From Nanoarchaeota archaeon SCGC AAA011-D5 (lineage in GTDB: Archaea > Nanobdellota > Nanobdellia > Pacearchaeales > GW2011-AR1): a DNA stretch of 64,000 nucleotides. The stretch spans positions 136,496 through 200,495 of the forward strand of contig ASMP01000001.1 of NCBI GenBank assembly GCA_000405225.1, in the 5' to 3' direction. Numbering within the stretch: the first letter of the stretch is position 1; every line of letters starts with the position of its first letter. A model generated the notes under the pieces. That model was not told where the DNA came from and ran no database searches. It worked only from the letters and a program-made list of their open reading frames with translations. Shown one piece after another: positions 32,814 through 47,498 of the stretch. Position numbers and translations under genes: made by a program.

Positions 32814-33024
32814 TCGCTCATTTCATTCGTTCACCCTATACCGCTTAAGCGCAGTCGTCCTAGGGCTTGATTGTTAATTTTCACTAGGAATTCTTTTAAT
32901 TTCAGCCCAAAATAGTTTTTAAAGATAACTAATCGGTGATCTGTAAAGTTAGCGACGCCTATTTTGTTACAAAAAGATATTCGGGTGCCAACACCTTTAA
33001 AAACTTCGACCGAAACAATTTTTC

Positions 33025-33660: not shown

Positions 33661-33831
33661 GCCTGCTCGGATTTGAACCGAGGACCCCTGCCTCTCTTAG
33701 ATGAAAACCTCCTGTTGGTTTCCCACACTTCCAGCTTCCCAAGATTATAATCTTGGTATCTAAAAGATTCTAATCCTTATGAATCAGATTCCTATAAGAG
33801 CAGTGCTCTGACCAGGCTGAGCTACAGGCTC
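33658..33831 (-). tRNA. tRNA-Ile(UAU) with an intron of about 99 nt after position 37
   Basis: Hand-folded: GAGCCTG/CAGGCTC acceptor, A73, D arm GCTC AGCCTGGTCA GAGC, anticodon stem CTGCT/GGCAG, loop CTTATA[intron]A, T arm CTCGG TTCAAAT CCGAG. Confidence 0.7.
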
Positions 33832-33911
33832 GTGAATGACGCAGCTGCGGCGTTCACTTTTTTGGAAGAATTCTTAGATATTTAAAATTATCCTAATACT
33901 GCTAATACTGA

Positions 33912-34121
33912 TTATTTTCCCGGGAACAAAGCCTTGAGCATTTTTCTTAAGTTATCATCTAAAAAACAAATATCTTCTGCAGCTACCTTTTCAATAAACT
34001 TGGTCAAAGCACCCCTGCCGTAAAATCCTGTTTCATTTGCTTTTTTTAACAGCTTTTTTTGTGTTTCAGAATCAAGATATACTTTAATTGGTTTCTTCAT
34101 ATCCCCTCTTTTCTTCATCAA
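33912..34121 (-). CDS. ribbon-helix-helix (CopG-like) DNA-binding protein
   Basis: KPIKVYLDSETQKKLLKKANETGFYGRGALTKFIEKV fits a beta-alpha-alpha layout. Confidence 0.5.
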   Translation of the reverse strand: MMKKRGDMKKPIKVYLDSETQKKLLKKANETGFYGRGALTKFIEKVAAEDICFLDDNLRKMLKALFPGK

Positions 34122-34222
34122 AATAAAGATTTTGTCTCTTATAAATTTTACTTACATCAGAGAAGATGTATTGCAATTGAAAAAGATGAACAGGCCCTAA
34201 AGGGCATGGTTTCAGGCCTTAA

Positions 34223-35344
34223 ATGGTTCCGAACTTTTATGATTGCTCCTCTCATTATTTTAATATGTCAGGCAGAGTATGGTATATCTCGGTCAGTAAG
34301 AAAAAGATTGAGTTTAAAAAATATCCGAAAAAACAGAAACAGGTTAAGAATAAAACATCAAAAACTAAAAATGTGGTTTTTGGTTTCTTATCTTTAGCAG
34401 TTTTGATCTTTTTGATGAATTTAATCTCTGCAGCTGAAATAAATGACACTCTTCACATAAATATCCAGACAACCTATTCAAACGGGACGATTCAGTCCGG
34501 AACCTTCGTTTTCGCATTTAACATCACGGAAAACTCTAGCGCAAGCTGCCTTGGCCCTGTAGCTTATAATCATTCTACCAGCCAGACTACGGACTCAAGG
34601 GGCATTGTTTCCATATATCTCCCCACAATCGGTTCTGGGGCAGGGAACCTCAGCAGCCTGAGTTTTGACAGGCAATATTATCTTTGTTATTACAGAGATG
34701 GAACTCTGAAAGAGGTTTCCCAGTTAGGAAGGGTTCCTTATTCATTCAGGGCAGCCCAGGTAAACTTAAGTAAGGTAGACATAGATTCAAACCTGACTCT
34801 TGGAAATTTCAATGTCAGTGCCACCTCAGGATATTTCACCATTTTGGGAATAAATATTACAACACCACTCGGCCTGTTGCACGTCGTCGGAAAAGGCATC
34901 AATTCCCTTGTCGTGAACTCAACAACAGGCAATGTAGGTATCGGAACAACAGACCCTGTTAAATTCCTTGATATACGAAATCCAATCTCTGGCGAAACAG
35001 AACTTGGAATTTTCTCATCCACTGACAACTCTGCTACTATCGACATCGGCACAAATGACGACGCTGATTGGGAAATTGAGTCCAGGAACACTCTTTCAGA
35101 TGCTCTGGTTATTAAAAAGCAGGACGGTGGAAGTGTAGACGTGTTTGCAATTACCCAGACGGGATTAGTGGGAATAAACACCACAACACCGCAGAACACA
35201 TTAAATGTGTTTGGAGCAATAAATTCAACAACAGGATTTATAGTTAATTCTTCAGTTGGTTTAACAGGAAATTTTAGCGTAGGTTCTTGTTGGTTTGCTT
35301 ATAAAGGAGGAATTGCTTACGGAACTAATTGCACAGCACTTTAA
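34223..35344 (+). CDS. secreted/surface protein rich in N-x-S/T sequons (start uncertain; alternative ATG at 34265)
   Basis: Basic N-terminus, TM/signal VVFGFLSLAVLIFLMNLISA, more than 12 N-x-S/T sites, Gly/Thr/Asn-rich beta-type repeats. Confidence 0.5.
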   Translation: MVPNFYDCSSHYFNMSGRVWYISVSKKKIEFKKYPKKQKQVKNKTSKTKNVVFGFLSLAVLIFLMNLISAAEINDTLHINIQTTYSNGTIQSGTFVFAFNITENSSASCLGPVAYNHSTSQTTDSRGIVSIYLPTIGSGAGNLSSLSFDRQYYLCYYRDGTLKEVSQLGRVPYSFRAAQVNLSKVDIDSNLTLGNFNVSATSGYFTILGINITTPLGLLHVVGKGINSLVVNSTTGNVGIGTTDPVKFLDIRNPISGETELGIFSSTDNSATIDIGTNDDADWEIESRNTLSDALVIKKQDGGSVDVFAITQTGLVGINTTTPQNTLNVFGAINSTTGFIVNSSVGLTGNFSVGSCWFAYKGGIAYGTNCTAL

Positions 35345-35422
35345 GGAAAAACCATTGTGAGAAATTATCATATTGGCTGAAACAGTAATTAATTTTATTA
35401 ACACTTGTTCTTTAAGATTTGT

Positions 35423-36370
35423 ATGAAGATTGATATTTCATCATTGACTGTTTTCCTCATTGCACTTATCATATTTTTTTCCCCGACAGTCGAGGCAGAC
35501 GTGATTTCTGTGAATGCAGGAGGGAGCAACGAAACCGCAGTCACTCCTGACAAATATGTTGAGGGATTTTTTTCCGGGATTCCCGAATCAGCGGCAGAAG
35601 TTACAACACCTTCAGGCGGTGCCGGCGGCGGCGGAGCAGCCACTTCTGCAAACGTTGCATTAACTCCGGCAGAATTTAATATTAATATGGTTGTAAACAC
35701 GACAACTGAAAGAACAATCAGCATCAGAAACCTCGGAACAAGTCCCCTCACGGTGGCTGTTACCGAATCGAACCTTGGAAATCATGTGATTCTTGGAAAT
35801 AAGTCATTAATAATCCCTGCCGGGCAGTCTGTGAACCTGAAAGTTGTTTTCGTTGCCCTCAGCGAACCGGGAATTTTTGCAGGCACTATCAATATAGGGG
35901 GAAAAACAGTCCTTGTTTCACTGAACGTAAAAACACAGCTCCTCTTGTTTGACTCAAATATAATCGTGCTGAACAGGAATTACCAAGTTCTTCAGGGAGA
36001 CGACTTAAGGACCAGGGTGACTCTTACCCCTCTCGGAGATCCTGAAAGACTCGACGTTGGTTTATTTTTTACAATAAGGGATTATTCAGGCAAAATTTAC
36101 TTGACAAAATCAGAGACAATGCTCGTTGAGGAGCTGACAGAAGTAAATAGAAATTTTGATACAGGATCCCTTCCTTTAGGGAAATATGTTGTCGGTCTTG
36201 AACTCAAGTATCCTAACGGAGTTGCTCCTTCCAGCGCGCATTTCGAGGTGTTGGAGAAAAAAGTAAGTACTCTAGGCAGTGTAATACCTTACCTATTAAG
36301 CTTTATTTTATTGATATTCATAATTATCCTGCTCCTGCTGATACGGAAAAGAATAAAGGAAAAAGAATAA
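35423..36370 (+). CDS. surface protein with signal peptide and C-terminal TM anchor
   Basis: Start set to ATG MKIDISS; GGAGGGGA linker; C-terminal YLLSFILLIFIIILLLLIRKRIKEKE. Confidence 0.5.
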   Translation: MKIDISSLTVFLIALIIFFSPTVEADVISVNAGGSNETAVTPDKYVEGFFSGIPESAAEVTTPSGGAGGGGAATSANVALTPAEFNINMVVNTTTERTISIRNLGTSPLTVAVTESNLGNHVILGNKSLIIPAGQSVNLKVVFVALSEPGIFAGTINIGGKTVLVSLNVKTQLLLFDSNIIVLNRNYQVLQGDDLRTRVTLTPLGDPERLDVGLFFTIRDYSGKIYLTKSETMLVEELTEVNRNFDTGSLPLGKYVVGLELKYPNGVAPSSAHFEVLEKKVSTLGSVIPYLLSFILLIFIIILLLLIRKRIKEKE

Positions 36371-36414
36371 ATCATAAAAGAAATATCTATAAACGATTCT
36401 TTAATCTAATTTCC

Positions 36415-37602
36415 ATGTTAATTGGGCTTGTCGGCAAACCAAGTTCAGGAAAGAGCACATTTTTCAAAGCAGCGACCCTGGCGGAGGTTGAAATCGCTTC
36501 CTATCCTTTCACCACAATAAAACCGAACCACGGCGTTGGCTATGTAAAGGTTGACTGTATTGAGCGAGAGTTCAGCGTAAAATGCCAGCCAGCTCATGGT
36601 TTCTGCATCGAGGGAAAAAGGTTTGTTCCTGTTGAGCTGATGGATGTAGCTGGTCTTGTACCAGGAGCGAGTGAGGGAAAAGGCCTTGGAAACCAGTTTC
36701 TGGATGATTTGAGGCAGGCAGACGTTTTCATACACATAGTGGATGTCTCTGGAACTACAGATGAAGAAGGAAAGCCTGTTGAAAACCATGACGTGTCAAA
36801 AGACATTCTTTTTCTGGAAAACGAATTGAATAGGTGGTTTTACAACTTAATGGTAAAAGCTTGGAAGGGCTTTGTGAAAAAAACAGCCCAGGAGGAAGGA
36901 GGCAACTTTTCCGAGGCTGTGGCAAAGCAGTTTTCCGGGTTGAAGGTAAGGGAAGAGCATGTGAAGAAAGTCCTTTCGAGGCTGAGACTCCCGGAAAAAC
37001 CCATGAACTGGAACGAAGACCAGCTTTTTTGGTTTGCATCAGAATTGAGAACAGAAAGCAAGCCGACAATAATCGCCGCAAACAAAGTTGACCTTGAAAA
37101 AGCCCATCCTAATTACCAGTTTTTAAAGATGAGATTTCCGGGCCTGATAATAATTCCATGCTCTGCAGATTCAGAGCTCGCCCTTAGGGAAGCTGCAAAA
37201 ATAAGGCTGATAAATTACATTCCAGGGGAGAGGGATTTCAAGATTACGGGAGAACTCAGCGACGAACAGAAAGAAGCTCTTCTTAGTATCAGGAAATCTG
37301 TTTTGGACAGATTTAAAGAAGGCACAGGAGTCCAGGAAGTCTTGAATTATGCGGTTTTTAACTTTTTGAATTATATCGCAGTTTTTCCGGCAGGAGCACA
37401 CAAGCTTGCGGACAGCAAGGGAAGAATTCTGCCAGACTGCTTCCTTCTTCCTTCTGGCTCCACTGCGCTGGATTTTGCATACCATCTCCATACAGATTTT
37501 GGAAATAATTTCATAAAAGCAATAGATGCGAGAACAAAAAAAATCCTGGGAAAAAATCACGAGTTGAAGCACAGGGATGCTTTGGAAATAGTTACCAGAT
37601 AA
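36415..37602 (+). CDS. ychF: Obg-family GTPase/ATPase, YchF-like with C-terminal TGS-like domain
   Basis: G1 GKPSSGKSTFF, YPFTTIKPN, G3 DVAGLV, G4 AANKVD. Confidence 0.8.
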   Translation: MLIGLVGKPSSGKSTFFKAATLAEVEIASYPFTTIKPNHGVGYVKVDCIEREFSVKCQPAHGFCIEGKRFVPVELMDVAGLVPGASEGKGLGNQFLDDLRQADVFIHIVDVSGTTDEEGKPVENHDVSKDILFLENELNRWFYNLMVKAWKGFVKKTAQEEGGNFSEAVAKQFSGLKVREEHVKKVLSRLRLPEKPMNWNEDQLFWFASELRTESKPTIIAANKVDLEKAHPNYQFLKMRFPGLIIIPCSADSELALREAAKIRLINYIPGERDFKITGELSDEQKEALLSIRKSVLDRFKEGTGVQEVLNYAVFNFLNYIAVFPAGAHKLADSKGRILPDCFLLPSGSTALDFAYHLHTDFGNNFIKAIDARTKKILGKNHELKHRDALEIVTR

Positions 37603-37702
37603 TTTTTCAGGATAAATCCTGTTTTAGCCAGCAAAATATAAAAGTGCAAAAGTGTTTAGCCCGGCAATCAGGAGACACCATTATAATACCTGATAAAAAA
37701 CC

Positions 37703-38215
37703 ATGCCAAAACTAAGGCATCTTATAAAAAAAGGGAAATATGTCACAACCAGAAAAGGAAATTTTGTCAGGAATCTTTCGGAAAAAATTGTCAGAGAGAT
37801 TAGGCCTTATGCGAGAAGAATTGAGGTAGTCGGAAGCATAAGAAGAAAGGAAGAAAATCCTGTCGATATTGATGTCGTCCTCATTCCAAAGAACGAGGGA
37901 AGCAAGGATAAAATTGAGGCCATTATGGAAAAGAGAGGGAAAAGAATTTTAGGCGGAGACAGGAAAGCCTATTTTAGAATTGAAGGAGTTGAGGTTGAAC
38001 TTTATTACACTCTGTCTGAAGAATGGGGCGCAGCCCTTCTTGCTTACTCTAGCAGATTCGGTGCAGGCATCGGTTTGAGGGTTGTCGCAAAGAAAAAAGG
38101 ATTTAAACTTAACCAGCACGGGCTTTTCAGAAAGGGAAAGAGGGTCGCCGGAAAAACAGAAAGTGAGATTTATCATGCTCTTGGAAGGCCATGGAAACCG
38201 CCTGAGAAAAGATGA
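37703..38215 (+). CDS. minimal DNA polymerase X-like nucleotidyltransferase (palm plus thumb only)
   Basis: VGSIRRKEENPVDIDVVLIP (GS-x9-DxD) and ...YSSRFGAGIGLRVVAKKKGFKLNQHGLF...EIYHALGRPWKPPEKR resemble the Pol beta palm/thumb; only 170 aa. Confidence 0.6.
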   Translation: MPKLRHLIKKGKYVTTRKGNFVRNLSEKIVREIRPYARRIEVVGSIRRKEENPVDIDVVLIPKNEGSKDKIEAIMEKRGKRILGGDRKAYFRIEGVEVELYYTLSEEWGAALLAYSSRFGAGIGLRVVAKKKGFKLNQHGLFRKGKRVAGKTESEIYHALGRPWKPPEKR

Positions 38216-38421
38216 AGATTAAAATTAAAGTCATGCCAAATTCAAAGAGACAGGAAGTTATTAAAAATGAAGAAGGGTACAGAGTTTATTTGAAATCAGC
38301 ACCAGAAAAAAATAAAGCAAACGCCGAGCTTGTTAGCCTGTTAAGCAAGTATTTTAATAAGCCCGTTAGAATAAAATCTGGATTCGCATCAAAAAATAAA
38401 ACCATTGAAATTGAAAAATGA
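38212..38421 (+). CDS. DUF167 (YggU-like) protein
   Basis: KVMPNSKRQEV...YLKSAPEKNKANAELVSLLSKYF...IKSGFASKNKTIEI. Confidence 0.6.
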   Translation: MKIKIKVMPNSKRQEVIKNEEGYRVYLKSAPEKNKANAELVSLLSKYFNKPVRIKSGFASKNKTIEIEK

Positions 38422-38894
38422 AATATATATATGCAGAAGACATACAGAAAACTTCGGAAGAAATTTCAAGGCTTCTTTTTCCGCATATAAAACTGGAAAG
38501 AATGAAATGTTTTCGTAGTCATGGAAGTTCTTCCAGAGGCACAGTTGCCCGTTGCCACACGATAGGAAAACTGCTTCAGACAGCCATGAATACTGGGGCT
38601 TTCTATGCCCTTGAGTTCATTTCAGAAAGATTTGACAAGCTTCCAGAAGAAGAGAAAATAAAGACGATAATCCACGAGCTTATGCACATCCCGCATACTT
38701 TCGGCGGCGGCTTCAGGCACCATGACCATGTTTGTGAGAGAAACATAAAAGCATGCTACAGGACATATAAAGAAAAAAAGAAAAATCTGGAAAACAGCGA
38801 TATTTTCGGTCTTAAAGAACTTAAATGGAAAAATCAGGACAATCTTAAGCTGATGAAAGATATGGGGAAAAATGCTGAAAAAGATTTCTTTTAA
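38418..38894 (+). CDS. putative HExxH zinc metallopeptidase-like protein
   Basis: IIHELMHIPHTFGGGFRHH. Confidence 0.45.
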   Translation: MKYIYAEDIQKTSEEISRLLFPHIKLERMKCFRSHGSSSRGTVARCHTIGKLLQTAMNTGAFYALEFISERFDKLPEEEKIKTIIHELMHIPHTFGGGFRHHDHVCERNIKACYRTYKEKKKNLENSDIFGLKELKWKNQDNLKLMKDMGKNAEKDFF

Positions 38895-39225
38895 ACTCAG
38901 AGGAAAAAGAATAAACATAATTGCCAAAGAATGCAGTGGACTGAACAGGTTTTTGGGCTTGATGTTCAAAGATAGAGATGATGCAAATGCTTTACTTCTT
39001 GAATTCGAAAAACCAGTCAGTTTTGCAATCCACTCTTTTTTCGTTTTCTTCCCGTTCATTGCAGTATGGATGGACGAAGAAGATAACGTCGTGGAATTCA
39101 AGATTGTAGAGCCCTTCACCCCGTCTGTCAAGGCTAAAAGGCAGTACAAAAAACTCCTTGAAATACCAATGAATGAAAAATATAACAGAAAAATAAACTT
39201 CTCGTCGGTGATTAGAAAGGTTTAA
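38872..39225 (+). CDS. DUF192-like protein
   Basis: FLGLMFKDR...ALLLEF...FAIHSFFVFFPFIAVWMDEEDNVVE...YKKLLEIP pattern. Confidence 0.5.
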   Translation: MLKKISFKLRGKRINIIAKECSGLNRFLGLMFKDRDDANALLLEFEKPVSFAIHSFFVFFPFIAVWMDEEDNVVEFKIVEPFTPSVKAKRQYKKLLEIPMNEKYNRKINFSSVIRKV

Positions 39226-39271
39226 ATATATAAATTAGCTTCATTAATTTAGATAATAAAAGGAGGTGCAA

Positions 39272-39400
39272 ATGGGAAAAGTACTTGTTAAAAAGGTTGT
39301 GAAGAGGAGGCCTGGTTATCTTTACTACGTTGATGGGCAGGGAAATGTATGCGAAGCAAAGATGGCTAGAGGCGGAGGAAAAAGAAAAAAGAAAAGGTAG
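39272..39400 (+). CDS. small basic protein (42 aa) preceded by a strong Shine-Dalgarno-like AGGAGGTG
   Basis: Not in track; MGKVLVKKVVKRRPGYLYYVDGQGNVCEAKMARGGGKRKKKR; aggaggtg lies 4 nt upstream of the ATG. Confidence 0.4.
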   Translation: MGKVLVKKVVKRRPGYLYYVDGQGNVCEAKMARGGGKRKKKR

Positions 39401-39422
39401 AATCTCCTTAATATTTTAATTT

Positions 39423-39869
39423 TTATTTCCTTTTAAGATTTTTATTTACAACTTGATTTAATTTATAGTCTATAGGCCTTGGAAACTTTCTTATTGGCTT
39501 TCTTGATTTTTTATGCGTTAGTTCTGTATCTGTTCTCATAAATATGTTATGGGCTTCAATGACAAGGTTCTCTAACTTTTGACCAAGATTTGGCGTAATG
39601 AGAAGATGTCTCATATCTGTATACTTATCTTTGTCTCTTCTGTGATAAACAGTTATGTGTTCTTTATGATCCAATTCCCAGCACAAATCACTATCTCTTA
39701 TATTTTCCGGAAAAGGAAATTCTTGCTTTCTTGCCTCTCCTTTTTTAGAATAACGAATCTGGATAGTTACACTCTTTGAATCCTCTACGGTTCTTCTAAA
39801 AGTCAAACTTGCATCATAAATGTTCAAAAACTGGTTTTCTGGTATAGTGGTTCTTTTAGTTTCGTTCAT
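39423..39869 (-). CDS. hypothetical protein
   Basis: Start set to MNETKR; basic tail; divergent from kae1. Confidence 0.4.
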   Translation of the reverse strand: MNETKRTTIPENQFLNIYDASLTFRRTVEDSKSVTIQIRYSKKGEARKQEFPFPENIRDSDLCWELDHKEHITVYHRRDKDKYTDMRHLLITPNLGQKLENLVIEAHNIFMRTDTELTHKKSRKPIRKFPRPIDYKLNQVVNKNLKRK

Positions 39870-40008
39870 TATATCTAATTTTTTATGATTGACCCCTTTT
39901 ATAAATATATCTTTCCCAAAAAGATATACAATCATTTTGCTTATACATCACTACAGGACGAATCTAATCCCATTATACTTTTATAAATACAAATTTTCTC
40001 TAGTTCTT

Positions 40009-40992
40009 ATGGCAGTTATTTTGGGAATAGAGAGCACAGCCCACACTTTTGGAGTGGCTGTAGTCAGAAACGGGAAAATTCTTTCTAATGTTAAAAGCAG
40101 TTATAAGACAGGGGAAGGAGGGATAATTCCCATGGATGCTGCAAGACATCACCGGGAAAATAAGGAAAAAATCTATTCTGAATCGCTTCTTTTATCTGGA
40201 ATAAAGGAGGAAGATATCGATGCTATTGCAGTTTCCCAGGGTCCTGGCCTGGCTCCATGCCTTCTTCAGGGAATGGGGTTTGCAAAAGAGCTTTCAGAAA
40301 AATTAAAAAGGCCGATAGTTCCTGTGAATCACTGCATTGCCCATCTTGAGATAGGAAGGATTACAGGAGCGAAAGATCCTGTGATGCTCTATGCATCCGG
40401 TGCAAATACGCAGATAATAGCCTATGCCTCTGAAAAATTCCGTGTTTTTGGCGAAACTCTTGACATTGGCGCAGGAAATTTCATAGATACTTTTGCGAGA
40501 TATGCTGGCATTGGTTTTCCCGGAGGTCCTGAAATTGAAAAACTTGCCTTGGAGTCTGGTTGCAAACTGATTAAACTTCCATACAAGGTGAAGGGAATGG
40601 ATATTGCTCTCTCCGGAATCCTGACAAACTTAAAACAAAAATTAGAATCCGGAGAATACAGGCTTCAGGACCTTGCGTTTTCCCTGCAGGAAACTGTTTT
40701 TGCCATGCTTGTTGAAGTTGCAGAAAGGGCGATGGCGCATACAGAAAAAAAAGAGCTTCTTCTCGGAGGAGGGGTTGCCTGCAATAAAAGACTACAGTCA
40801 ATGTGCAGAACCATGTGCGAGGAAAGGGGGGCAAGACTTTTCTGCCCTGAAAACCAGTTTCTGGTTGATAACGCAGGAATGATAGCCTACCTTGGAGAGA
40901 TAATGTTCAAGTCTGGAATAAAGAAAAATCCAGGAGATGTTGATATCAAACCGAGGGAAAGGACAGATGATGTGAAAGTGACGTGGCGATAA
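40009..40992 (+). CDS. kae1: tRNA N6-adenosine threonylcarbamoyltransferase Kae1
   Basis: ILGIESTAHTFGVAVV, metal-binding VNHCIAHLE, ASGANT, GGGVACN; TTTATAAATA box about 25 nt upstream of the ATG at 40009. Confidence 0.9.
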   Translation: MAVILGIESTAHTFGVAVVRNGKILSNVKSSYKTGEGGIIPMDAARHHRENKEKIYSESLLLSGIKEEDIDAIAVSQGPGLAPCLLQGMGFAKELSEKLKRPIVPVNHCIAHLEIGRITGAKDPVMLYASGANTQIIAYASEKFRVFGETLDIGAGNFIDTFARYAGIGFPGGPEIEKLALESGCKLIKLPYKVKGMDIALSGILTNLKQKLESGEYRLQDLAFSLQETVFAMLVEVAERAMAHTEKKELLLGGGVACNKRLQSMCRTMCEERGARLFCPENQFLVDNAGMIAYLGEIMFKSGIKKNPGDVDIKPRERTDDVKVTWR

Positions 40993-41005
40993 TTTTCTGT
41001 AAATC

Positions 41006-42814
41006 TTAACTAGAGATGACTCCGGTTTTGTATCTTTCAACCTCGGCATTTACCATTCCATGCAATCTCCCCAAAGCTTCTTCTGCCCTTCTTCTGAAAT
41101 CTTCGTGCAATCTTTGATATCTTTCCTCAGCTTTATAAAGAATATTATCTGCTATTTTAGAAATTAGCTTTAATTTTTCATGATAATCTTCTTTTCTACT
41201 TGCAATAATTCTTCCTGCCTTTTCAGAGAATTGAGCGTACAAACTTTGTATATGTGGTATATAATTGTCTGCCTCTAATGTGGCTCTTGTGATGTTTCTG
41301 AAATGATCAAATTTAATTGCTTGGGCAACGGCTTCCGGAAAATATCCTGGATTTGTTAAAGCAGTACCTACTAAGTATTTTGCATATTCCCATCCTCCTT
41401 CTGCGAAAAGTTGTCCTTTTATAGATCTGCCAAGAATTATAAGTCCTTCAAGAGATGATCTCTTTGTTCTGTGGTGTGGACCCTGATTTTTCTGGAGAGT
41501 TCTGCATCTGTCGTAATAATTTCTTGCGTTAAATAATTTACCGAGAAGTCCCTTATACCCTTTTAATAGTTCTTCTTCGCTTAGTTCTGTTTTTGTTTCA
41601 AAATTAAACCCTAATTGGTGTGTGTTGTTCCCAGTTGAATCTCCTCTGAGCCTTCCTTCTCTTTTAAGACGATTGTATAAATCAGTTCCTTTTAGGGCTG
41701 TTAATAGTCCCGCCATTGGAAAGACAATTCCTGCTTCTTGAATAAAATTATATAATTTATCTAAAGAACCTCTTTTTTCTCCATCAGTTCCGACGATAAA
41801 TCCTCCCGAAACTTCTAAACCATATTTTTGAATTCTCCTTGCCGCTTCAAGTTGAGGCATTTGTGTGTTTTGTCTTTTTTGCATATTTTCCAAAACTTCA
41901 TTATCAACAGATTCTATACCAAGGAAGACAGAACTGAACCCTGCTTTTTGCATGCCTTCTAAGATGTCTCTATTATTGTCCCAAGCCAAGTTCATGCTCG
42001 CTTCTGTGAATAGAGAAAAGGGGTATCTTCGTTCTTTCTGCCATTCGGCTATGTGCAGTAGTAGCTGTTTGACATTTTTTCTGTTTCCGATAAAATTATC
42101 ATCGACGATAAAGACAGAGCCTTTGTGCCCTAAATTATAAAGGGCATCAAGTTCTGAAAGCATTTGCTCAGGAGTTTTTGTTCTTGGTTCTCTTCCGAAA
42201 AGTTTTGTTATATCGCAAAAATCACAATTAAATGGACAACCTCTCGAGTATTGAATTGCAGCGGAGAAATAGTTATTTAAGTTTAATAAGTCCCATCTTG
42301 GTAGTGGCGTGTTTGTGATGAGTACTTTCCCTCCTTTTGTTAATTCAACTAATCCTTTTGTCCTTTCAGACACATTTTTCTCTGTCCAGACCCCTTTTTC
42401 TGCCCCCTTTAATAAGTCTTCTAAGAAGGGCCATAGAGTGGCTTCCGCTTCCCCTGCGACAACATAATCTGCCCCTGTTTTTTCAGGGTGCATTGTTGGA
42501 AATGGGCCTCCAGCCACAACTTTTTTCCCTAGGCTATGGGCTCTTTCAACAATTTCTTTATGAGAATTTTCTTGAACAATCATCGCTGAAGTGAATAAAA
42601 AGTCTGTGTTCTCTAGGTGTTCGTCTGTTAAAGGCTCAACGTTTAAGTCTACCAGCCTTTGTGCTTCAAATCTTTCCGGGAGCATAGCCATTACAGTTAG
42701 CAATCCTGTTGGAGGCATCACAGCCTTCTTCCCAACGTGTCTAAGGGATGTTCCGTAGCTCCAAAATGTTTCTGGAAATTTAGGATAGACTGGCAAAACT
42801 TTTATCGTATCCAT
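41006..42814 (-). CDS. B12-binding-domain radical SAM protein with long helical C-terminal domain (DUF4070-like)
   Basis: CX3CX2C in YSRGCPFNCDFCDI; N-terminal Rossmann-like B12-binding region; 602 aa. Confidence 0.85.
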   Translation of the reverse strand: MDTIKVLPVYPKFPETFWSYGTSLRHVGKKAVMPPTGLLTVMAMLPERFEAQRLVDLNVEPLTDEHLENTDFLFTSAMIVQENSHKEIVERAHSLGKKVVAGGPFPTMHPEKTGADYVVAGEAEATLWPFLEDLLKGAEKGVWTEKNVSERTKGLVELTKGGKVLITNTPLPRWDLLNLNNYFSAAIQYSRGCPFNCDFCDITKLFGREPRTKTPEQMLSELDALYNLGHKGSVFIVDDNFIGNRKNVKQLLLHIAEWQKERRYPFSLFTEASMNLAWDNNRDILEGMQKAGFSSVFLGIESVDNEVLENMQKRQNTQMPQLEAARRIQKYGLEVSGGFIVGTDGEKRGSLDKLYNFIQEAGIVFPMAGLLTALKGTDLYNRLKREGRLRGDSTGNNTHQLGFNFETKTELSEEELLKGYKGLLGKLFNARNYYDRCRTLQKNQGPHHRTKRSSLEGLIILGRSIKGQLFAEGGWEYAKYLVGTALTNPGYFPEAVAQAIKFDHFRNITRATLEADNYIPHIQSLYAQFSEKAGRIIASRKEDYHEKLKLISKIADNILYKAEERYQRLHEDFRRRAEEALGRLHGMVNAEVERYKTGVISS

Positions 42815-42846
42815 AAGAAACTTAGATAATAATGGTATTTATTTCT

Positions 42847-42900
42847 ATTGATATAAAGCCGAGAGAAAGGACCGACGATGTTGAAGTTACATGGAGATAG
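42847..42900 (+). pseudogene. relic copy of the kae1 3' end (last 17 codons plus stop)
   Basis: 42/54 nt identical to 40939-40992; translates IDIKPRERTDDVEVTWR* versus VDIKPRERTDDVKVTWR*. Confidence 0.75.
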
Positions 42901-42903
42901 AAA

Positions 42904-43494
42904 TCATACTCCTATTCTAACTGCGAGAATTTGATCCTGATCCTTGGGATCAGTAGTATAAGCCACATTCTCTATAAACAATGAGGCATTATTTTTGTTT
43001 ATTAACCTAAATAGATTTGATAAGAATTCACACTCTTTAATATTTATTCCTCTTGATGGTTGATCTACTAAAATTTCCAACGCATTTATTCCAAAAACTT
43101 TTTCCAATATTTTCCTATCTGGAAATCCTTTGTAAACCTTAGCAACAGTTATATATGAATTATCAACGCCTATCCTTACCAAATCTTCTCTAAGAGATTC
43201 TTCTGTCCTTATCTTTCCAGGATACCATCTTTTAAAATAACTATTTTTGTTGAATGGCCATTGTCTAATTGAAGAAAATGCTTTAAAAAAGGCATTTTTT
43301 GATAGATTTGTCCATAGCAATCCGTTATGTGTCCAATAAACAGGAGATTTCTCCCTTAAGAGTTTGTCTAACGATTCTAATTTTGCTCTTTCGTATTTAA
43401 AATGCATTTTACCTCCTGCCTCTTTTTCATATCTGATTATTTCCTCACGAAGCTCTCGTTCTTTTACTTTCAAATCCATCTTTATCCCAGCCAT
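42904..43494 (-). CDS. hypothetical protein
   Basis: 196-aa ORF; its stop lies 3 nt from the kae1 relic stop; no motif recognised. Confidence 0.45.
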   Translation of the reverse strand: MAGIKMDLKVKERELREEIIRYEKEAGGKMHFKYERAKLESLDKLLREKSPVYWTHNGLLWTNLSKNAFFKAFSSIRQWPFNKNSYFKRWYPGKIRTEESLREDLVRIGVDNSYITVAKVYKGFPDRKILEKVFGINALEILVDQPSRGINIKECEFLSNLFRLINKNNASLFIENVAYTTDPKDQDQILAVRIGV

Positions 43495-43566
43495 TTTAAA
43501 TTTAAAATAATTTATATACTACTCTTAAAATGAAAACTTTAAAAAGCTATTTTTTCTCACTAATTT

Positions 43567-43589
43567 ATCCGATGACCTTATGGGAGGAT
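43567..43589 (+). promoter_or_regulatory. K-turn/K-loop hairpin in the L7Ae mRNA leader
   Basis: ATCC-GAT-GA-CC-TTAT-GG-GA-GGAT: 4-bp C stem, 3-nt bulge, tandem G.A/A.G, short NC stem; 47 nt upstream of the rpl7ae ATG and downstream of a CTTTAAAAAG box. Confidence 0.45.
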
Positions 43590-43635
43590 TTATTCTTCTC
43601 GTAGTCATTAAACACTAAAACAATATAAAAGCAAA

Positions 43636-43944
43636 ATGGCAGACATTTATTCGATAATCGAAAAGGCAAGAAAAACAGGAAAAGTTGAAAAAGGAACTAA
43701 CGAAGTCACAAAAGCCATAGAGAGGGGAACAGCAAAACTCGTGGTCTATGCCACAGATGTTTCTCCCAAGGAAATAGTTCAGCACATCCCTGTCTTGTGC
43801 AGGGAAAAGAAAATCCTTTGTAGGGAAGTTGACAGCAAGCAGAAACTGGGAATTGCCGTTGGAATTCCAGTGTCTGCATCTTCTGTGGCTGTTATTGAGC
43901 CAGGGGATTCTGAAAAAGACATTGCTGGCTTGAATAAAAATTAA
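43636..43944 (+). CDS. rpl7ae: ribosomal protein L7Ae
   Basis: [36 protein letters not shown]. Confidence 0.9.
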
Positions 43945-43965
43945 AACACAAAAAGAAAATTAAAA

Positions 43966-44271
43966 ATGGGCGGAGCAAAACAGCAGTACAAATCAAAACA
44001 AACACAACAGTCACAGGCTTCTAAAGGAAGCGACAGGATTCTTACAGCGGAAGCTGTTCCTGCCCTTGTCGAGGACATAATAGGAAGAACAGGCTTTCGC
44101 GGAGAGATTACGCAGGTAAAAGCCCTGGTAACTTCTGGAAGAGATAAAGGGAGATCTATGAGAAGAAACGTCAAAGGCCCTGTAAGAATAGGAGATTACT
44201 TGATGCTGAGGGAGACAGAAATAGAGGCAAGAAGAATAAAGTCCAAAGTCACAAAAGGGACATACACATAA
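43966..44271 (+). CDS. rps28e: ribosomal protein S28e with an N-terminal extension of about 30 aa
   Basis: [16 protein letters not shown]...[21 protein letters not shown]. Confidence 0.85.
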
Positions 44272-44272
44272 A

Positions 44273-44491
44273 ATGCCTACAAAACTAAATAGTTTAGAGA
44301 TACTTAGTGCCTTTGAAGAGATATTTAGAGCAGGTGTTCAATCTATTAAACTCAGTGGTTTATCTGGAGATGATGCTACGCTATGGGAAAATTGCCTTGA
44401 AAGTGAAGAAGAACACTATTTGATTGATGTGCATGAACCATCTAGAGCAAATCCATATTATTCAATTGAAATTAAATCTAAAAAAAGATAA
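44273..44491 (+). CDS. hypothetical 72-aa protein wedged between rps28e and rpl24e
   Basis: ORF with 1-2 nt spacers to both neighbours; acidic; no motif. Confidence 0.4.
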   Translation: MPTKLNSLEILSAFEEIFRAGVQSIKLSGLSGDDATLWENCLESEEEHYLIDVHEPSRANPYYSIEIKSKKR

Positions 44492-44493
44492 AA

Positions 44494-44667
44494 ATGCCTA
44501 AATGCAGCTATTGCGGGAAACAGTACGAGCCTCCGAGAGGCCTGACTCTTGTTTTCAATGACGGAACTCCCAGATACTTTTGCTCTTCAAAATGCAGGAA
44601 AAATTTTTTCCTTAAAAGAAGAAAAGTCAGATGGATTTCTAAGAAGAAAAGTAGCAAAATTAATTAG
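44494..44667 (+). CDS. rpl24e: ribosomal protein L24e
   Basis: Not in track; MPKCSYCGKQYEPPRGLTLVFNDGTPRYFCSSKCRKNFFLKRRKVRW. Confidence 0.85.
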   Translation: MPKCSYCGKQYEPPRGLTLVFNDGTPRYFCSSKCRKNFFLKRRKVRWISKKKSSKIN

Positions 44668-44777
44668 AATTTATGCCTTGTCCTAGGGTTCCAATAAAAC
44701 ATTGGAGATTTATAAGTTTAAAAACGTTCGTTTTAGCTCTAGATTAAGTTTAAAAAGTATTTTCTGAAATTTCTTTT

Positions 44778-45095
44778 ATGGAATTTTGCATAAATTGTAG
44801 TAGGCCTGTGGAATTGAATGAAAACAAAGAAAAATGTGTCTGTGGTTTTACAAACATAATTACTTCTAAAATATATTTCAGCGAGAAGATAAAAAAACAA
44901 GAAGAAAAAGGAAAAGGCATTCTTATTCCTGAAAAGTTTGGAGAAAAAGGATTTCCGCATATCTGTAAAAAATGTGGATATGAATATGCTGATGTTATAG
45001 ATTTGGGTTCGTCTTGGGCGGATGAATCAAATGTATATTTATTTAAATGTAAAAAATGCACTCACGTTACAAGAGATGCTTATGGAAGCCAATAA
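44778..45095 (+). CDS. tfs: transcription factor S / RNAP subunit M-like double zinc-ribbon protein
   Basis: N-terminal CINC...CVCG and C-terminal CKKCGYEYA...SWADESNVYLFKCKKCTH ribbon with an ADE loop. Confidence 0.55.
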   Translation: MEFCINCSRPVELNENKEKCVCGFTNIITSKIYFSEKIKKQEEKGKGILIPEKFGEKGFPHICKKCGYEYADVIDLGSSWADESNVYLFKCKKCTHVTRDAYGSQ

Positions 45096-45101
45096 TCAAT
45101 T

Positions 45102-45383
45102 TTAACAAAACTCATTTCTCTGTTCCAAAGTTCTGGGGTCTTTCCAGCTTTCAGAGAACTGAACAACAGCTCCTGTTATCGGGTTCATTTTTATGACTTC
45201 CAGGTCTTTGCAGAAAATCTCAAAATCCTGGCAGAGATTTTCTGAGTTGCAGATGGCTTTTGTATGGGAAAAGAGATGAGGATAATTAGATGATGAATTA
45301 GAGGTTGTTAATGCTAATAATAAAGTTGTTAAAAGGATTAAAATGACCATTAATGCTGTTATCAAACTTGTCCTTTTTTTCAT
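45102..45383 (-). CDS. small membrane-anchored Cys-containing protein
   Basis: N-terminal TM followed by a 4-Cys ectodomain. Confidence 0.4.
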   Translation of the reverse strand: MKKRTSLITALMVILILLTTLLLALTTSNSSSNYPHLFSHTKAICNSENLCQDFEIFCKDLEVIKMNPITGAVVQFSESWKDPRTLEQRNEFC

Positions 45384-45602
45384 AAAATTGTCATTATTTT
45401 CTTGTTTTTAAAGATATGTGTTTTTTCCTGAAATTTTGATGAAAAATTGCATTTGCCGTCGATAAATGGCGAGAAAAGTTTATAAAGCATCTTTCCTTTT
45501 TTCATAATAATAGGGTAAAAATAATAGAACTTTCTGCTCCACTTTTATGTTAAAAAGTAAGGCTGGAGCAGGAAGTGTCTAACCTATTCTTAAGTACACA
45601 AA

Positions 45603-47498
45603 ATGCCAGAAAAATACAGCGCAGAATCAATAAAAGTTCTTGAAGGACTTGAGGGAGTTCGAAAAAGGCCTGCAATGTATGTTGGCTCCACTGGCAAAGA
45701 AGGATTGCATCACTTGATATATGAAGCTGTGGATAATTCTGTGGATGAGGCATTGGCAGGAGTATGCAAAAATATCACTGTTTCTATCAACAAAGACGGT
45801 TCTGCCACAATAGAAGATGATGGAAGAGGAATACCTGTCGATATACACCCCATATACAAAGTTCCCGCTGTCCAGATAGCTCTTACAAAGCTCCATGCAG
45901 GGGGAAAATTTGACAAGAAATCCTATGAGATTTCTGGGGGACTTCATGGAGTAGGTATATCTGTTGTAAATGCCCTTTCAAAGAAGTTAATAGTGGAAAT
46001 AAAAAGAGATGGAAAAATATACCGGCAGGAATATTCAAGAGGGGATGTAAAGACCAAGCTGGAAGTAGCTGGAAAATATTCTGAAAACGGCTCTGGCACA
46101 AAAGTAATTTTCTGGCCAGACGAAACCATTTTTTCAACTGTCAATTTTGACTACAAAGTCTTGGAAACAAGATTTAGGGAAATAACATTTCTCAATCCCG
46201 GTCTTAAGATAAACTTAATAGATGAAATAAAAGGAAAAGATGAGGAATTTTTCTCATCTGGAGGACTAATGGAGTTTGTCAAGTGGATGAATGAATCTAA
46301 AGAAGTTCTTCACAAGCCAATATATTTCAAAAAAGATGTGGACAAAACGATAATAGAAGTTGCCATACAATATAATGATGGTTATCAGGAAAATATTTTT
46401 GGATTTGTCAACACAATAAATACGGTAGAGGGTGGGACGCATGTTTCTGGTTTTAAGACTGCTGTTACAAGAGTCATAAATGATTATGCAAAGAAAACAG
46501 GAATGCTGAAAAATGGTTCCAGCGAGGAAAGTTTAACAGGAGAAGATGTAAGAGAAGGATTGACGGCTATAATAAGCCTAAAAATATCTGAGCCTCAGTT
46601 TGAAGGACAGACAAAAACTAAATTGGGCAATTCTGAAGTAAAGGGATTGGTTGACTCTGCTGTGACTGCCTCGCTTTCCCAATTCTTTGAGGAAAACCCC
46701 GTTATTGCAAAGAAAATAACTCTTAAGGCGCTTGAATCTGCAAAGGCAAGGCTTGCAGCCAAAAAGGCAAAGGACCTGATAAGAAGAAAGAATGCATTTT
46801 CATTGGGCGGACTTCCAGGCAAGCTTGCAGATTGCTCAAGCAAGAAGACAGAGAATACCGAACTTTATATTGTTGAGGGAGAGAGCGCTGCAGGTTCGAG
46901 CAAAATGGCAAGAGACAAGGAAAACCAGGCAATACTCCCACTTAAGGGAAAAATATTGAATGTTGAAAAATCAAATCCTATCAAGGCACTTTCAAGCGAG
47001 GAAATTGCAAACATAATAACTGTAGCAGGAACAGGAGTTGGAGACCAGTTTGATGTCTCTAATTTAAGATATGGTAAAATAATAATCATGACAGATGCAG
47101 ATGTTGACGGAGAACACATTAAGACACTGCTACTGACATTTTTCTTCAGGTTTATGCCTAGGCTGATAGAAAATGGAAACATCTATGTCGCTCTTCCCCC
47201 ATTGTACAGAATAAGAAAAGGACAAAAGGATGAATATGTTTATTCTGACGAAGAGCTAAAAAAAGCAATTGAAAAGACAGACGCGACTAATGTAACAAGA
47301 TTTAAGGGTCTTGGAGAGATGAATTCCCAGCAGCTTTGGGACACTACAATGGATCCAAAAACAAGAAAACTGAAAAAGATATTCATAGAGGATGCAATTG
47401 AAGCTGACAAAGTATTTTCAATGCTTATGGGCGATGATGTTCCTGCAAGAAAACAGTTCATCCAGGAAAACGCAAAGGAGGCTAATCTCGATATATGA
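45603..47498 (+). CDS. gyrB: DNA gyrase subunit B
   Basis: LEGLEGVRKRPAMYVGST, HHLIYEAVDNSVDEA, Toprim ELYIVEGESAAGS, PLKGKILNVEK, IIIMTDADVDGEHI. Confidence 0.95.
   Translation: MPEKYSAESIKVLEGLEGVRKRPAMYVGSTGKEGLHHLIYEAVDNSVDEALAGVCKNITVSINKDGSATIEDDGRGIPVDIHPIYKVPAVQIALTKLHAGGKFDKKSYEISGGLHGVGISVVNALSKKLIVEIKRDGKIYRQEYSRGDVKTKLEVAGKYSENGSGTKVIFWPDETIFSTVNFDYKVLETRFREITFLNPGLKINLIDEIKGKDEEFFSSGGLMEFVKWMNESKEVLHKPIYFKKDVDKTIIEVAIQYNDGYQENIFGFVNTINTVEGGTHVSGFKTAVTRVINDYAKKTGMLKNGSSEESLTGEDVREGLTAIISLKISEPQFEGQTKTKLGNSEVKGLVDSAVTASLSQFFEENPVIAKKITLKALESAKARLAAKKAKDLIRRKNAFSLGGLPGKLADCSSKKTENTELYIVEGESAAGSSKMARDKENQAILPLKGKILNVEKSNPIKALSSEEIANIITVAGTGVGDQFDVSNLRYGKIIIMTDADVDGEHIKTLLLTFFFRFMPRLIENGNIYVALPPLYRIRKGQKDEYVYSDEELKKAIEKTDATNVTRFKGLGEMNSQQLWDTTMDPKTRKLKKIFIEDAIEADKVFSMLMGDDVPARKQFIQENAKEANLDI

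What the first reader, a model, noticed from the sequence alone, without database searches (positions are those of the whole stretch)
40939..42900. Radical SAM gene inserted behind kae1, leaving a synonymously diverged relic of the kae1 3' end
The last 17 codons plus stop of kae1 (40939-40992) reappear at 42847-42900. Nucleotide identity is 42/54, but 15 of 17 amino acids match (VDIKPRERTDDVKVTWR* versus IDIKPRERTDDVEVTWR*), and most changes are at third codon positions. Between the two copies lies only the 602-aa B12-binding radical SAM gene on the opposite strand, with its own promoter.

The substitution pattern suggests the two ends come from diverged kae1 alleles. That would mean a segment of about 1.85 kb carrying a replacement gene end plus the radical SAM gene entered by recombination or integration at the kae1 3' end. 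This resembles elements that target and restore a host gene terminus.
Basis: partly seen in the sequence, partly recalled or inferred. Interest (0 to 1): 0.7.

Follow-up and report, generated by a model that had tools for sequence, protein, structure and literature searches.

The report
Radical SAM cassette inserted at kae1's end
In this small archaeal (Pacearchaeota-like) genome, a radical SAM gene was inserted into the last codons of the essential kae1 gene and kae1 kept a working hybrid end, while the displaced original end survives as a dead copy; relatives show this gene end is a repeated entry point for foreign genes, including a homing endonuclease.

Summary
Window 40939-40992 (last 17 codons plus stop of kae1) recurs at 42847-42900: 42/54 nt, 15/17 aa, and 10 of 12 differences are silent. 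Only the 602-aa B12-binding radical SAM gene and its promoter lie between.

Relatives settle the origin.
- Two "empty" alleles exist. In L172, kae1 is directly convergent with the 99-aa gene found in its place.
- The second copy matches the L167 native end best (48/54, against 42/54 to its own gene).
- The last 15 nt of the working kae1 end and the spacer travel with the radical SAM gene in a different kae1 background (L005).
- The same promoter|relic junction occurs in front of two unrelated downstream genes.
- The relic decays in some lineages (frameshift in L181), so it is not a functional peptide.

The kae1-to-L7Ae gap is a hot spot: 26 of 75 relatives are empty and 49 carry varied cargo. 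All 16 extra kae1-end copies in 1.08 Mb lie in this gap. Three lineages carry a LAGLIDADG endonuclease gene overlapping a replacement kae1 end.

The mechanism is inferred: recombination in the conserved terminal block, possibly break-stimulated. No recombinase was found. I rate this a new variant of a known kind.

The parts
40009..40992 (+). kae1 (KEOPS t6A synthase subunit), 327 aa, intact
   Evidence: Pfam TsaD 4e-77. NCBIfam arch_KAE1 scores 423 bits against a cutoff of 375. It is 97% identical in amino acids to L002/L007.
40939..40992 (+). Repeat copy 1: the working kae1 terminus, a hybrid. Sites 1-27 (40939-40965) match the kae1 allele of the empty-site relative L167. The last 15 nt, GTGACGTGGCGATAA (40978-40992), match the radical-SAM-linked end of L005.
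40993..41005 (.). 13-nt spacer between the convergent stop codons. It is cassette-linked: ttttctgtaaatc is shared with L005 and L002.
41006..42814 (-). B12-binding radical SAM gene (602 aa, with a DUF4070 tail), the cargo
   Evidence: Pfam hits. No equivalog reaches its cutoff in NCBIfam. It is only about 80% identical in nucleotides to the allele in L002/L007, although the flanks are 95-100% identical.
42815..42846 (-). Radical SAM upstream region, with a TATA-like AAATAAATA (reverse complement of 42836-42844). This is the right edge of the cassette.
   Evidence: Conserved in W, L171, L002, L008 and L181. Homology to the empty sites stops here. Function as a promoter is inferred.
42847..42900 (+). 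Repeat copy 2: the displaced kae1 terminus (relic), non-functional
   Evidence: It matches the native end of empty-site L167 at 48/54, and is identical at 21/21 over sites 31-51. The same junction is seen in L171, L002, L008 and L181. The relic decays in L008 and is frameshifted in L181.
42904..43494 (-). 196-aa ORFan, convergent on the relic (3 nt away). It was the original convergent neighbour of kae1.
   Evidence: Only 5 homologues were found among 5.8 billion proteins. In L167 its homologue abuts a true kae1 stop, and in L168 it abuts a relic behind a homing endonuclease gene.
43495..43944 (+). L7Ae promoter, conserved 5' leader and L7Ae gene: the right-hand conserved flank of the variable gap
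   Evidence: Pfam Ribosomal_L7Ae. It is 95-99% identical in nucleotides to L002. kae1-L7Ae-S28e synteny holds in 75 relatives.

Best explanation
A promoter-bearing, single-gene radical SAM cassette was inserted into the extreme 3' end of kae1 by recombination inside the conserved last 54 nt of the gene.

What the sequences show:
- kae1 stayed intact because the incoming DNA supplied the final codons. The working end is a hybrid: the resident allele runs up to about the ...ACNGAYGAYGT block, and cassette-linked sequence follows through the stop.
- The resident terminus was pushed 1908 nt downstream. There it sits, untranslated, against the stop codon of the gene that used to be kae1's convergent neighbour.
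- The relic has no function of its own.

What is inferred:
- Because the relic is homologous to any kae1 end, it has served as the right-hand homology arm, with kae1 itself as the left arm. This let the cassette be exchanged between related genomes that have different downstream genes.
- That exchange would explain why radical SAM alleles differ by about 20% in genomes whose flanks are 95-100% identical. It would also explain why relic copies differ from each other mostly at silent sites: each carries part of a once-functional host end.
- The primary event and later transfers were probably helped by double-strand breaks. In related genomes the same kae1 block is occupied by a free-standing LAGLIDADG endonuclease gene that brings its own recoded kae1 end.

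Shown: the duplication, the empty sites, the hybrid composition, the shared junctions, relic decay and allele incongruence. Inferred: the direction of each event, the recombination pathway (single crossover of a circular copy or break-templated copying, as against one-sided illegitimate joining), and any role for the endonuclease.
For: 1. Empty-site alleles exist. L167 has kae1 convergent on the 196-aa gene, and one 51-nt stretch of L167 aligns to both window copies. L172 has kae1 convergent on the 99-aa gene and then L7Ae.

2. The relic is nearest to the L167 native end (48/54), against 42/54 to its own gene's end. The value 42 is ordinary for two lineages: the clade mean is 37.9 and the 95th percentile is 44.

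3. The last 15 nt of the working end and the spacer are identical to those next to the radical SAM gene in L005, whose kae1 differs upstream.

4. An identical promoter|relic junction occurs in W and L171 (196-aa gene downstream) and in L002, L008 and L181 (99-aa gene downstream).

5. W against L002/L007 is 95-100% identical in nucleotides in kae1 and in L7Ae-S28e, but about 80% across the radical SAM gene. The break lies at the kae1 stop. Radical SAM distances are star-like and incongruent with Kae1.

6. All 16 extra kae1-end copies found in 1.08 Mb lie on the plus strand in the kae1-L7Ae gap, in at least 7 independent configurations.

7. A LAGLIDADG_3 ORF overlaps a replacement ...VEIKYR* end, with the displaced end downstream, in L076, L030 and L168. 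Remnants are seen in L015, L003 and L017.

8. Relic decay (L008: D>C, E>I, V>A, W>Q; L181: 2-nt deletion) excludes a conserved peptide.
Against: - No recombinase or endonuclease gene lies in or near the cassette, and none was found in the 64-kb window. The enzymatic route is therefore unknown.
- The apparent reciprocal pattern rests on about 11 sites. The 5' half of the working end matches L167 and the 3' half of the relic matches L167. The relic's 5' signature (ATT GAT ATA AAG) also occurs in native ends of other lineages, so a circular or Campbell-type intermediate is only suggested.
- L167 and L172 could be revertants (precise loss by recombination between the repeats) rather than never-occupied sites.
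- Homologous radical SAM genes also sit next to kae1 without any relic in L018, L077, L003, L017 and L005.
- A 54-nt arm at about 80% identity is a poor substrate for homologous recombination.
Confidence: 0.68

Rival explanations
1. There was one ancient, one-sided event (homology-facilitated illegitimate recombination). A donor fragment, anchored by homology in kae1, was joined illegitimately at codon -17 of the recipient. Everything since is vertical descent, plus swapping of the whole kae1-L7Ae island through its conserved flanks. The relic never acted as a recombination arm.
For: All relic-bearing alleles share one junction, which fits a single origin. Other insertions at this site have different duplication lengths: about 120 nt for the endonuclease events, 54 nt here, and about 33 nt for the acetyltransferase and other events. 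That variation is what illegitimate joins would give. The W-against-L002 divergence begins at the kae1 stop and ends at L7Ae, as whole-island replacement would predict.
Against: The same junction precedes two unrelated downstream genes that each abut the relic's stop. Both of those genes also occur abutting a true kae1 stop in empty-site genomes. This needs a crossover in or at the relic. Relic 3' halves follow the downstream background. L181 and L002 have identical 99-aa proteins but different relic halves.
Confidence: 0.2
2. This is the remnant of a site-specific integrative element. A tyrosine or serine recombinase element whose attP mimics the kae1 3' end integrated, giving an attL (working end) and an attR (relic). 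The recombinase and the rest of the element were later deleted, leaving the radical SAM gene.
For: The layout is that of a direct-repeat attL/attR pair with restoration of the target gene's 3' end. Several short relics begin at the same codon (R of RTDDV) with conserved non-kae1 left flanks in unrelated genomes: 'AACATTG|AGAACAGATGATGTT' in L008 and L039, and a hairpin followed by CYGGA|AGAACAGATGA in L030 and L073/L059.
Against: No recombinase lies in the cassette or the window. No integrase appears among the 25 most frequent Pfam families of 77 gap ORFs (the list was truncated, so this is not exhaustive). The repeats are only 78% identical. The duplication length differs between events. No kae1-end pattern was found in 2.9 million viral contigs.
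Confidence: 0.08
3. This is a local duplication, or a functional small ORF or regulatory site. The kae1 end was duplicated in place, or the 22-codon ORF at 42832-42900 (MVFISIDIKPRERTDDVEVTWR*) encodes a peptide that mimics the Kae1 tail, or the sequence is a regulatory site for the radical SAM gene or the 196-aa gene.
For: An in-frame ATG is present in W, L171, L002 and L008. Differences between the W and L002 relics fall mostly at third codon positions: 1, 2 and 8 by position.
Against: The ATG lies inside the conserved TATA-region sequence of the opposite-strand gene. L181 has a frameshift and L008 has non-conservative changes, including W>Q. The copy is no closer to its own gene than to unrelated lineages, so it is not a recent in-place duplication. 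There is no Rfam match.
Confidence: 0.04

Closest known systems
Fungal mitochondrial mobile endonuclease ORFs (mORFs) that create hybrid genes with a C-terminal duplication. Examples are Glomus atp6, atp9, cox2 and nad3, and Allomyces macrogynus atp6, as described in PMC3630166.
   Same: A foreign segment enters the 3' end of an essential gene and supplies a replacement C-terminus in frame. The native C-terminus is left downstream. The native copy resembles relatives' genes, while the two copies differ mainly at silent sites. The L076, L030 and L168 loci match this fully, with a LAGLIDADG ORF between the two copies.
   Different: In the window the cargo is a radical SAM enzyme gene, not an endonuclease. 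The genes are convergent and not fused in frame. The host is an archaeal chromosome, not a mitochondrial genome. In the archaeal endonuclease loci the endonuclease gene overlaps the new kae1 end in antisense.
Integrative elements that target the 3' end of tRNA or protein genes and restore it (attL/attR direct repeats)
   Same: Direct repeats of the target terminus flank the insert, the target gene stays functional, and serial insertions stack up (three kae1 ends in L008).
   Different: There is no integrase. The insert is a single gene of 1.9 kb. The repeats are diverged (78%). The length of the duplicated segment varies between events.
Homology-facilitated illegitimate recombination and variable islands between conserved core genes, exchanged by flanking homologous recombination (general knowledge)
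   Same: A conserved gene acts as an anchor. Cargo in the kae1-L7Ae gap is diverse (49 of 75 occupied). Sharp identity breaks fall at the gene boundaries.
   Different: The retained, repeatedly re-used partial copy of the anchor gene's terminus is not a usual feature of such islands.
Integron gene cassettes
   Same: Single-gene units accumulate at one site, with the newest next to the entry point.
   Different: There is no IntI and no attC. The cassette carries its own promoter. The repeated sequence is a piece of a host gene.

Membership tests
Kae1/TsaD (archaeal KEOPS Kae1) | Full-length match to the archaeal Kae1 equivalog model above its cutoff | tested here: met
   TIGR03722 scores 423 bits against a cutoff of 375, and Pfam TsaD gives 4e-77.
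Class B (B12-binding) radical SAM enzymes | An N-terminal B12-binding domain plus a radical SAM core with a CxxxCxxC motif | tested here: met
   PF02310, PF04055 and PF13282 all pass their cutoffs. The CPFNCDFC motif is in the translation. No NCBIfam equivalog reaches its cutoff, so the substrate is unknown.
Endonuclease mORF with C-terminal duplication (mitochondrial type) | A homing endonuclease ORF lies between the inserted and the native C-terminus | tested here: not met
   In the window only the radical SAM gene lies between the copies, and the window has no LAGLIDADG homologue. The feature is met in relatives L076, L030 and L168.
Endonuclease mORF with C-terminal duplication (mitochondrial type) | The native C-terminus is displaced downstream and is closer to relatives' native ends than to the inserted one | tested here: met
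   The relic matches the L167 native end at 48/54, against 42/54 to the working end.
Site-specific integrative element (attL/attR) | A recombinase gene is carried by the element or sits beside it | tested here: not met
   There is no such ORF in 40993-42846 or in the flanking genes. None appears among the top Pfam families of 77 gap ORFs in relatives, although that list was truncated.
Site-specific integrative element (attL/attR) | Direct repeats of a fixed core flank the insert, with the target gene restored | tested here: inconclusive
   Repeats are present and kae1 is restored. However, identity is 78%, and the repeat length is 54 nt here against about 33 and about 120 nt in other events.
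Integron cassette | An attC hairpin site and an IntI integrase | tested here: not met
   There is no inverted repeat at the cassette edges, and no integrase was found.
LAGLIDADG homing endonuclease (the ORFs in relatives L076, L030 and L168, not in the window) | LAGLIDADG domain match above the Pfam cutoff | tested here: met
   PF14528 scores 29.1, 28.6 and 34.8 bits against a cutoff of 22.5. Cleavage activity and target are not testable here.

The most novel reading that the evidence does not exclude
The kae1 terminus of Pacearchaeota-like archaea works as a recombinase-free docking site. Promoter-bearing single-gene cassettes (radical SAM, GNAT acetyltransferase and others) each carry a portable copy of the kae1 end. 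They move between genomes, possibly as circles looped out between the repeats, by homologous recombination with the resident kae1 end. Double-strand breaks made by a kae1-targeting free-standing LAGLIDADG endonuclease drive their capture and spread. This would be an archaeal, homology-based functional analogue of cassette platforms.
Probability: 0.2. Interest if true: 0.78.

Novelty: new variant of a known kind. Interest (0 to 1): 0.6.

Why it matters
DPANN archaea have tiny genomes, and little is known about how they gain genes. This locus gives a concrete, sequence-resolved route: foreign genes enter at the last codons of an essential, highly conserved gene, and that gene is repaired by the incoming DNA.

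Empty, occupied and endonuclease-occupied alleles all exist among close relatives from groundwater samples. This makes gene gain and loss, allele turnover of a radical SAM enzyme, and a possible homing endonuclease target directly testable.

It also extends the C-terminal duplication signature, known from fungal mitochondrial mobile ORFs, to archaeal chromosomes and to cargo that is not an endonuclease.

Tried and rejected
1. Relic as a conserved peptide or micro-ORF. This was attractive at first, because the W-against-L002 relic differences are mostly at third codon positions and an ATG is conserved. I rejected it after seeing the decayed L008 relic and the frameshifted L181 relic.

2. Whole C-terminal tail imported. 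The window's tail type 'KKNPGDVDIK' differs from that of its nearest N-terminal relatives. However, the empty-site allele L167 has the same tail type, so the tail belongs to the resident kae1 allele. Only about the last 25 nt or fewer are cassette-linked.

3. Clean reciprocal (Campbell) mosaic. The site table looks reciprocal. It depends on L167 as the reference, and the relic's 5' signature occurs in other native ends. I keep it as suggestive only.

4. Recoded Arg codons (CGN-CAR-CGN ends). These are found only in occupied gaps: 11 of the 11 such loci whose gap length is known are occupied, and none of the 26 empty-gap loci has this end type. This is suggestive of imported or endonuclease-resistant ends, but it is confounded by phylogeny.

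5. Searches that found nothing useful:
- Rfam on 39000-45500.
- PHROGs for the ORFans, the endonuclease and the radical SAM gene.
- PDB sequence search with the endonuclease.
- kae1-end pattern and endonuclease in viral contigs.
- The metagenome scan with the radical SAM protein, which added only one close locus, L087, equivalent to L002.

6. Composition. The insert has 37.8% GC against 36.9% for the window, so there is no foreign signal.

7. The sigma-70 promoter and terminator scan is not informative for an archaeon.
Full report
OBSERVATION. The repeat is exactly as described. Window 40939-40992 (the last 17 codons plus stop of kae1) and 42847-42900 share 42/54 nt and 15/17 aa. Of the 12 differences, 9 are at third codon positions, one is the silent CGA/AGA change, one is the stop (TAA/TAG), and two change an amino acid (V/I and K/E). 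Similarity ends abruptly on both sides. The pair is the strongest direct repeat in 39000-45000, with a period of 1908 nt. It is also the only second Kae1 hit in the window.

I built a position matrix from 85 Kae1 C-ends and scanned six frames of 1.08 Mb of related loci. It found the 85 true ends, 16 extra copies and nothing else. Chance is therefore excluded.

kae1 is a bona fide archaeal Kae1. The only gene between the copies is a 602-aa B12-binding radical SAM protein with a DUF4070 tail, on the minus strand. No NCBIfam equivalog reaches its cutoff, so its substrate is unknown. A Logan contig from run SRR3927433 (L001) is identical to window 32785-47037.

WHAT RELATIVES SHOW. The organism belongs to Pacearchaeota/Nanoarchaeota-like DPANN archaea, judging by the titles of 80 Kae1 loci from genome collections.

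In 75 loci that hold both genes, the backbone order is kae1 -> L7Ae -> S28e.
- In 26 of them the gap is only 74-174 bp. It holds nothing but the L7Ae promoter and a conserved leader.
- In the other 49 the gap carries 0.36-7.3 kb of very diverse cargo. This includes epimerases, methyltransferases, SDRs, NUDIX, a hydrogenase set, an intein-bearing IMPDH, and other radical SAM genes.

The gap is therefore a hot spot. All 16 extra kae1-end copies lie inside this gap, on the kae1 strand.

The radical SAM gene sits convergent to kae1 in the following loci:
- the window;
- L002, L007 and L087 (Kae1 97% identical);
- L008, which equals L006 (86%);
- L003 and L017 (75%);
- L005;
- L018 and L077, where the radical SAM gene is more distant.

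The closer Kae1 relatives L009-L013 (79-83%) have empty or differently occupied gaps. The relic is found at the same junction with the radical SAM upstream region in W, L171, L002/L087, L008 and L181.

THE EMPTY SITES. The 196-aa gene next to the relic has only five homologues among 5.8 billion proteins. Their contigs are decisive.
- In L167, a kae1 94% identical to the window's ends ...KKSPGDVDIKPRERTDDVEVTWR*. It is directly convergent (4 nt) with the homologue of the 196-aa gene, and there is no radical SAM gene. One 51-nt stretch of L167 aligns both to window 40940-40990 and to 42848-42898.
- L171 has S28e-L7Ae-(196-aa gene)-relic-radical SAM, like the window, but with another radical SAM allele.
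- L168-L170 have kae1[...RTDEVEIKYR*], then a 346-aa LAGLIDADG ORF, then a displaced end, then the 196-aa gene.

The 99-aa gene that takes the place of the 196-aa gene in L002 and L008 also has an empty-site counterpart. In L172, kae1 (84% identical) abuts the 99-aa gene, which is followed by L7Ae-S28e.

COMPOSITION OF THE TWO COPIES. The window relic matches the L167 native end at 48/54, its best match anywhere. Apart from the stop codon, it is identical over its last 21 nt. It matches its own gene's end at only 42/54. That value is ordinary for any two lineages: the clade mean is 37.9/54 and the 95th percentile is 44.

The working end is a hybrid.
- Its first 27 nt equal the L167/L002 kae1 allele.
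- Its last 15 nt (GTGACGTGGCGATAA) and the following spacer (ttttctgtaaatcttaac) are identical to the sequence next to the radical SAM gene in L005, whose kae1 is very different upstream.

So the cassette-linked part of kae1 is at most about 25 nt. The switch lies in the most conserved block (ACNGAYGAYGT).

The site pattern looks reciprocal: the working end follows resident then cassette, and the relic follows another source then resident. That would fit a single crossover with a circular copy, or break-templated copying. I treat this as suggestive only. It rests on about 11 sites, and the relic's 5' signature also occurs in native ends of other lineages.

TRANSFER. Window against L002/L007 gives the following nucleotide identities:
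- 95-100% in 36424-39324, in kae1, and in L7Ae-S28e;
- about 80% across the radical SAM gene, with the break at the kae1 stop;
- no homology in the gene after the relic.

Radical SAM distances among W, L002, L008 and L017 are star-like (23-32% aa). Kae1 distances for the same loci are 2.8%, 13.5% and 24%. Radical SAM third-position divergence (0.31-0.39) is lower than that of kae1 for the more distant hosts (0.41-0.49).

In a radical SAM tree, the kae1-adjacent genes of W, L002, L005, L008 and L017 form one clade, whose sister (L004/P0006) is not next to kae1. L018 and L077 belong to another clade.

The identical promoter|relic junction occurs in front of two unrelated downstream genes. Each of those genes also occurs abutting a true kae1 stop. 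This is most simply explained by crossovers within the relic, which would make the relic a portable homology arm. That is an inference.

The relic itself is not under coding constraint:
- L008 has D>C, E>I, V>A and W>Q;
- L181 has a 2-nt deletion.

The mostly silent differences among the better-kept relics fit their derivation from once-functional host ends.

OTHER EVENTS AT THE SAME SITE.
- L008 carries three kae1 ends, arranged as working end, GNAT acetyltransferase, a short relic, the radical SAM gene, and then the 54-nt relic.
- L076 and L030 carry a 347-aa ORF with a LAGLIDADG_3 domain (above the Pfam cutoff) and a C-terminal winged-helix-like region. Its 3' end overlaps, in antisense, a replacement kae1 end (...VEIKYR*). 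The displaced 40-codon native end lies downstream.
- L015 keeps a 77-aa remnant of this ORF. L003 and L017 keep only the VEIKYR end, followed 110 nt later by the previous end.
- Short relics starting at the R of RTDDV recur with conserved non-kae1 left flanks in L008 and L039, and in L030 and L073/L059. L073 has them as a 76-nt tandem array.
- The duplicated length differs between event types: about 120 nt, 54 nt and about 33 nt.

MECHANISM AND RIVALS. My preferred explanation is an insertion by recombination inside the conserved terminal block. The incoming DNA restores kae1 and the relic is inert. Later exchange between genomes uses kae1 and the relic as homology arms. Breaks made by the kae1-associated LAGLIDADG enzyme plausibly stimulate these events.

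The rivals are as follows.
- A single one-sided illegitimate event followed by whole-island swapping. This cannot be excluded. It explains the shared junction but not its presence in two downstream backgrounds.
- A decayed site-specific integrative element. No recombinase was found, the repeats are diverged, the repeat length varies, and no kae1-end pattern occurs in viral contigs.
- A functional micro-ORF or regulatory site. This is contradicted by relic decay.

L167 and L172 may be revertants rather than naive sites. Either way, the recombination runs through the repeats.

COMPARISON WITH KNOWN SYSTEMS. The closest described phenomenon is the C-terminal duplication made by mobile endonuclease ORFs in fungal mitochondrial genes (Glomus atp6, atp9, cox2 and nad3; Allomyces atp6). 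There the inserted C-terminus is foreign and in frame, and the native one is displaced and resembles relatives (PMC3630166). The archaeal endonuclease loci match this closely.

The window locus has the same architecture with a metabolic gene as cargo, so it fails the 'endonuclease between the copies' criterion. It also resembles integrase-mediated integration into gene 3' ends, but it fails the recombinase criterion.

I therefore class it as a new variant of a known kind. Interest is moderate to high, because empty, occupied and endonuclease-occupied alleles coexist among close relatives and make the mechanism testable.

Noticed in passing
L076:7264-8307 (-), L030:6283-7326 (-), L168:869-1909 (+); remnants at L015:8948-9181 and in L003/L017 (kae1 ends ...VEIKYR*): A free-standing LAGLIDADG_3 ORF (346-347 aa, with a winged-helix-like C-terminus). 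Its last ~37 nt overlap, in antisense, a replacement kae1 end. The displaced native kae1 end lies just downstream. All six occurrences are at the kae1 terminus, which looks like an archaeal counterpart of mitochondrial mobile endonuclease ORFs.
   Followed up: partly
window 43560-43625, and the kae1-L7Ae gaps of 26 relatives (e.g. L009:8985-9082): A conserved leader upstream of L7Ae (TATCCGATGA[AC]C ... GAGGA ... GTTC) follows a TATA-like AAACTTTTATAAA. It looks like the kink-turn through which L7Ae is known to bind its own mRNA. There is no Rfam match.
   Followed up: no
window 39423-39935 (-): This 170-aa ORFan upstream of kae1 is only 42-44% identical in amino acids (46-75% in nucleotides) between the window and L002/L007, although the DNA on both sides is 95-100% identical. 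It is a second hypervariable gene flanking kae1.
   Followed up: no
window 45603-47498 (gyrB); L015:10616-13801; L174:1-703: gyrB is only about 70% identical in nucleotides between the window and L002, despite near-identical neighbouring genes. L015 has a 1061-aa GyrB with a large insertion that looks like an intein. A population variant, L174, has a LAGLIDADG_2-bearing ORF at the gyrB position. Intein or endonuclease-driven allele turnover may also act here.
   Followed up: no
L073:8958-9145, L059:8958-9230, L030:7507-7581: 76-nt tandem units are made of the last 33 nt of kae1 plus a 43-nt spacer containing a hairpin (GCRTAGCTGAA...TCAGCTCYGGA). The hairpin sequence is shared by two lineages whose Kae1 proteins are each only 73-75% identical to the window's. 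Its origin and role are unexplained.
   Followed up: partly
kae1 ends of 85 loci (codons -12 and -10): Ends with both arginines recoded as CGN (CGN-CAR-CGN) occur only in loci with an occupied kae1-L7Ae gap: all 11 such loci whose gap length is known are occupied, and none of the 26 empty-gap loci has this end type. All endonuclease- and acetyltransferase-linked ends are of this type. These may be imported or cleavage-resistant alleles, but phylogenetic non-independence was not controlled.
   Followed up: partly
window 41006-42814: Divergence between radical SAM alleles is itself mosaic. Against L002, window 42113-42312 is 92-97% identical, while the B12-binding-domain part (42313-42812) is 65-81% identical. 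At least four radical SAM alleles (W, L002, L171, L181) occur in very similar genomic backgrounds.
   Followed up: no
L011:9100-10884: In the same kae1-L7Ae gap, an IMP dehydrogenase gene is interrupted by an intein-like insertion with a LAGLIDADG motif (GVFDGEGS).
   Followed up: no
window 42832-42900: A 22-codon ORF (MVFISIDIKPRERTDDVEVTWR*) has an ATG conserved in four alleles. The ATG lies within the TATA-region sequence of the opposite-strand radical SAM gene. The ORF is broken in L181, so it is probably a by-product.
   Followed up: yes
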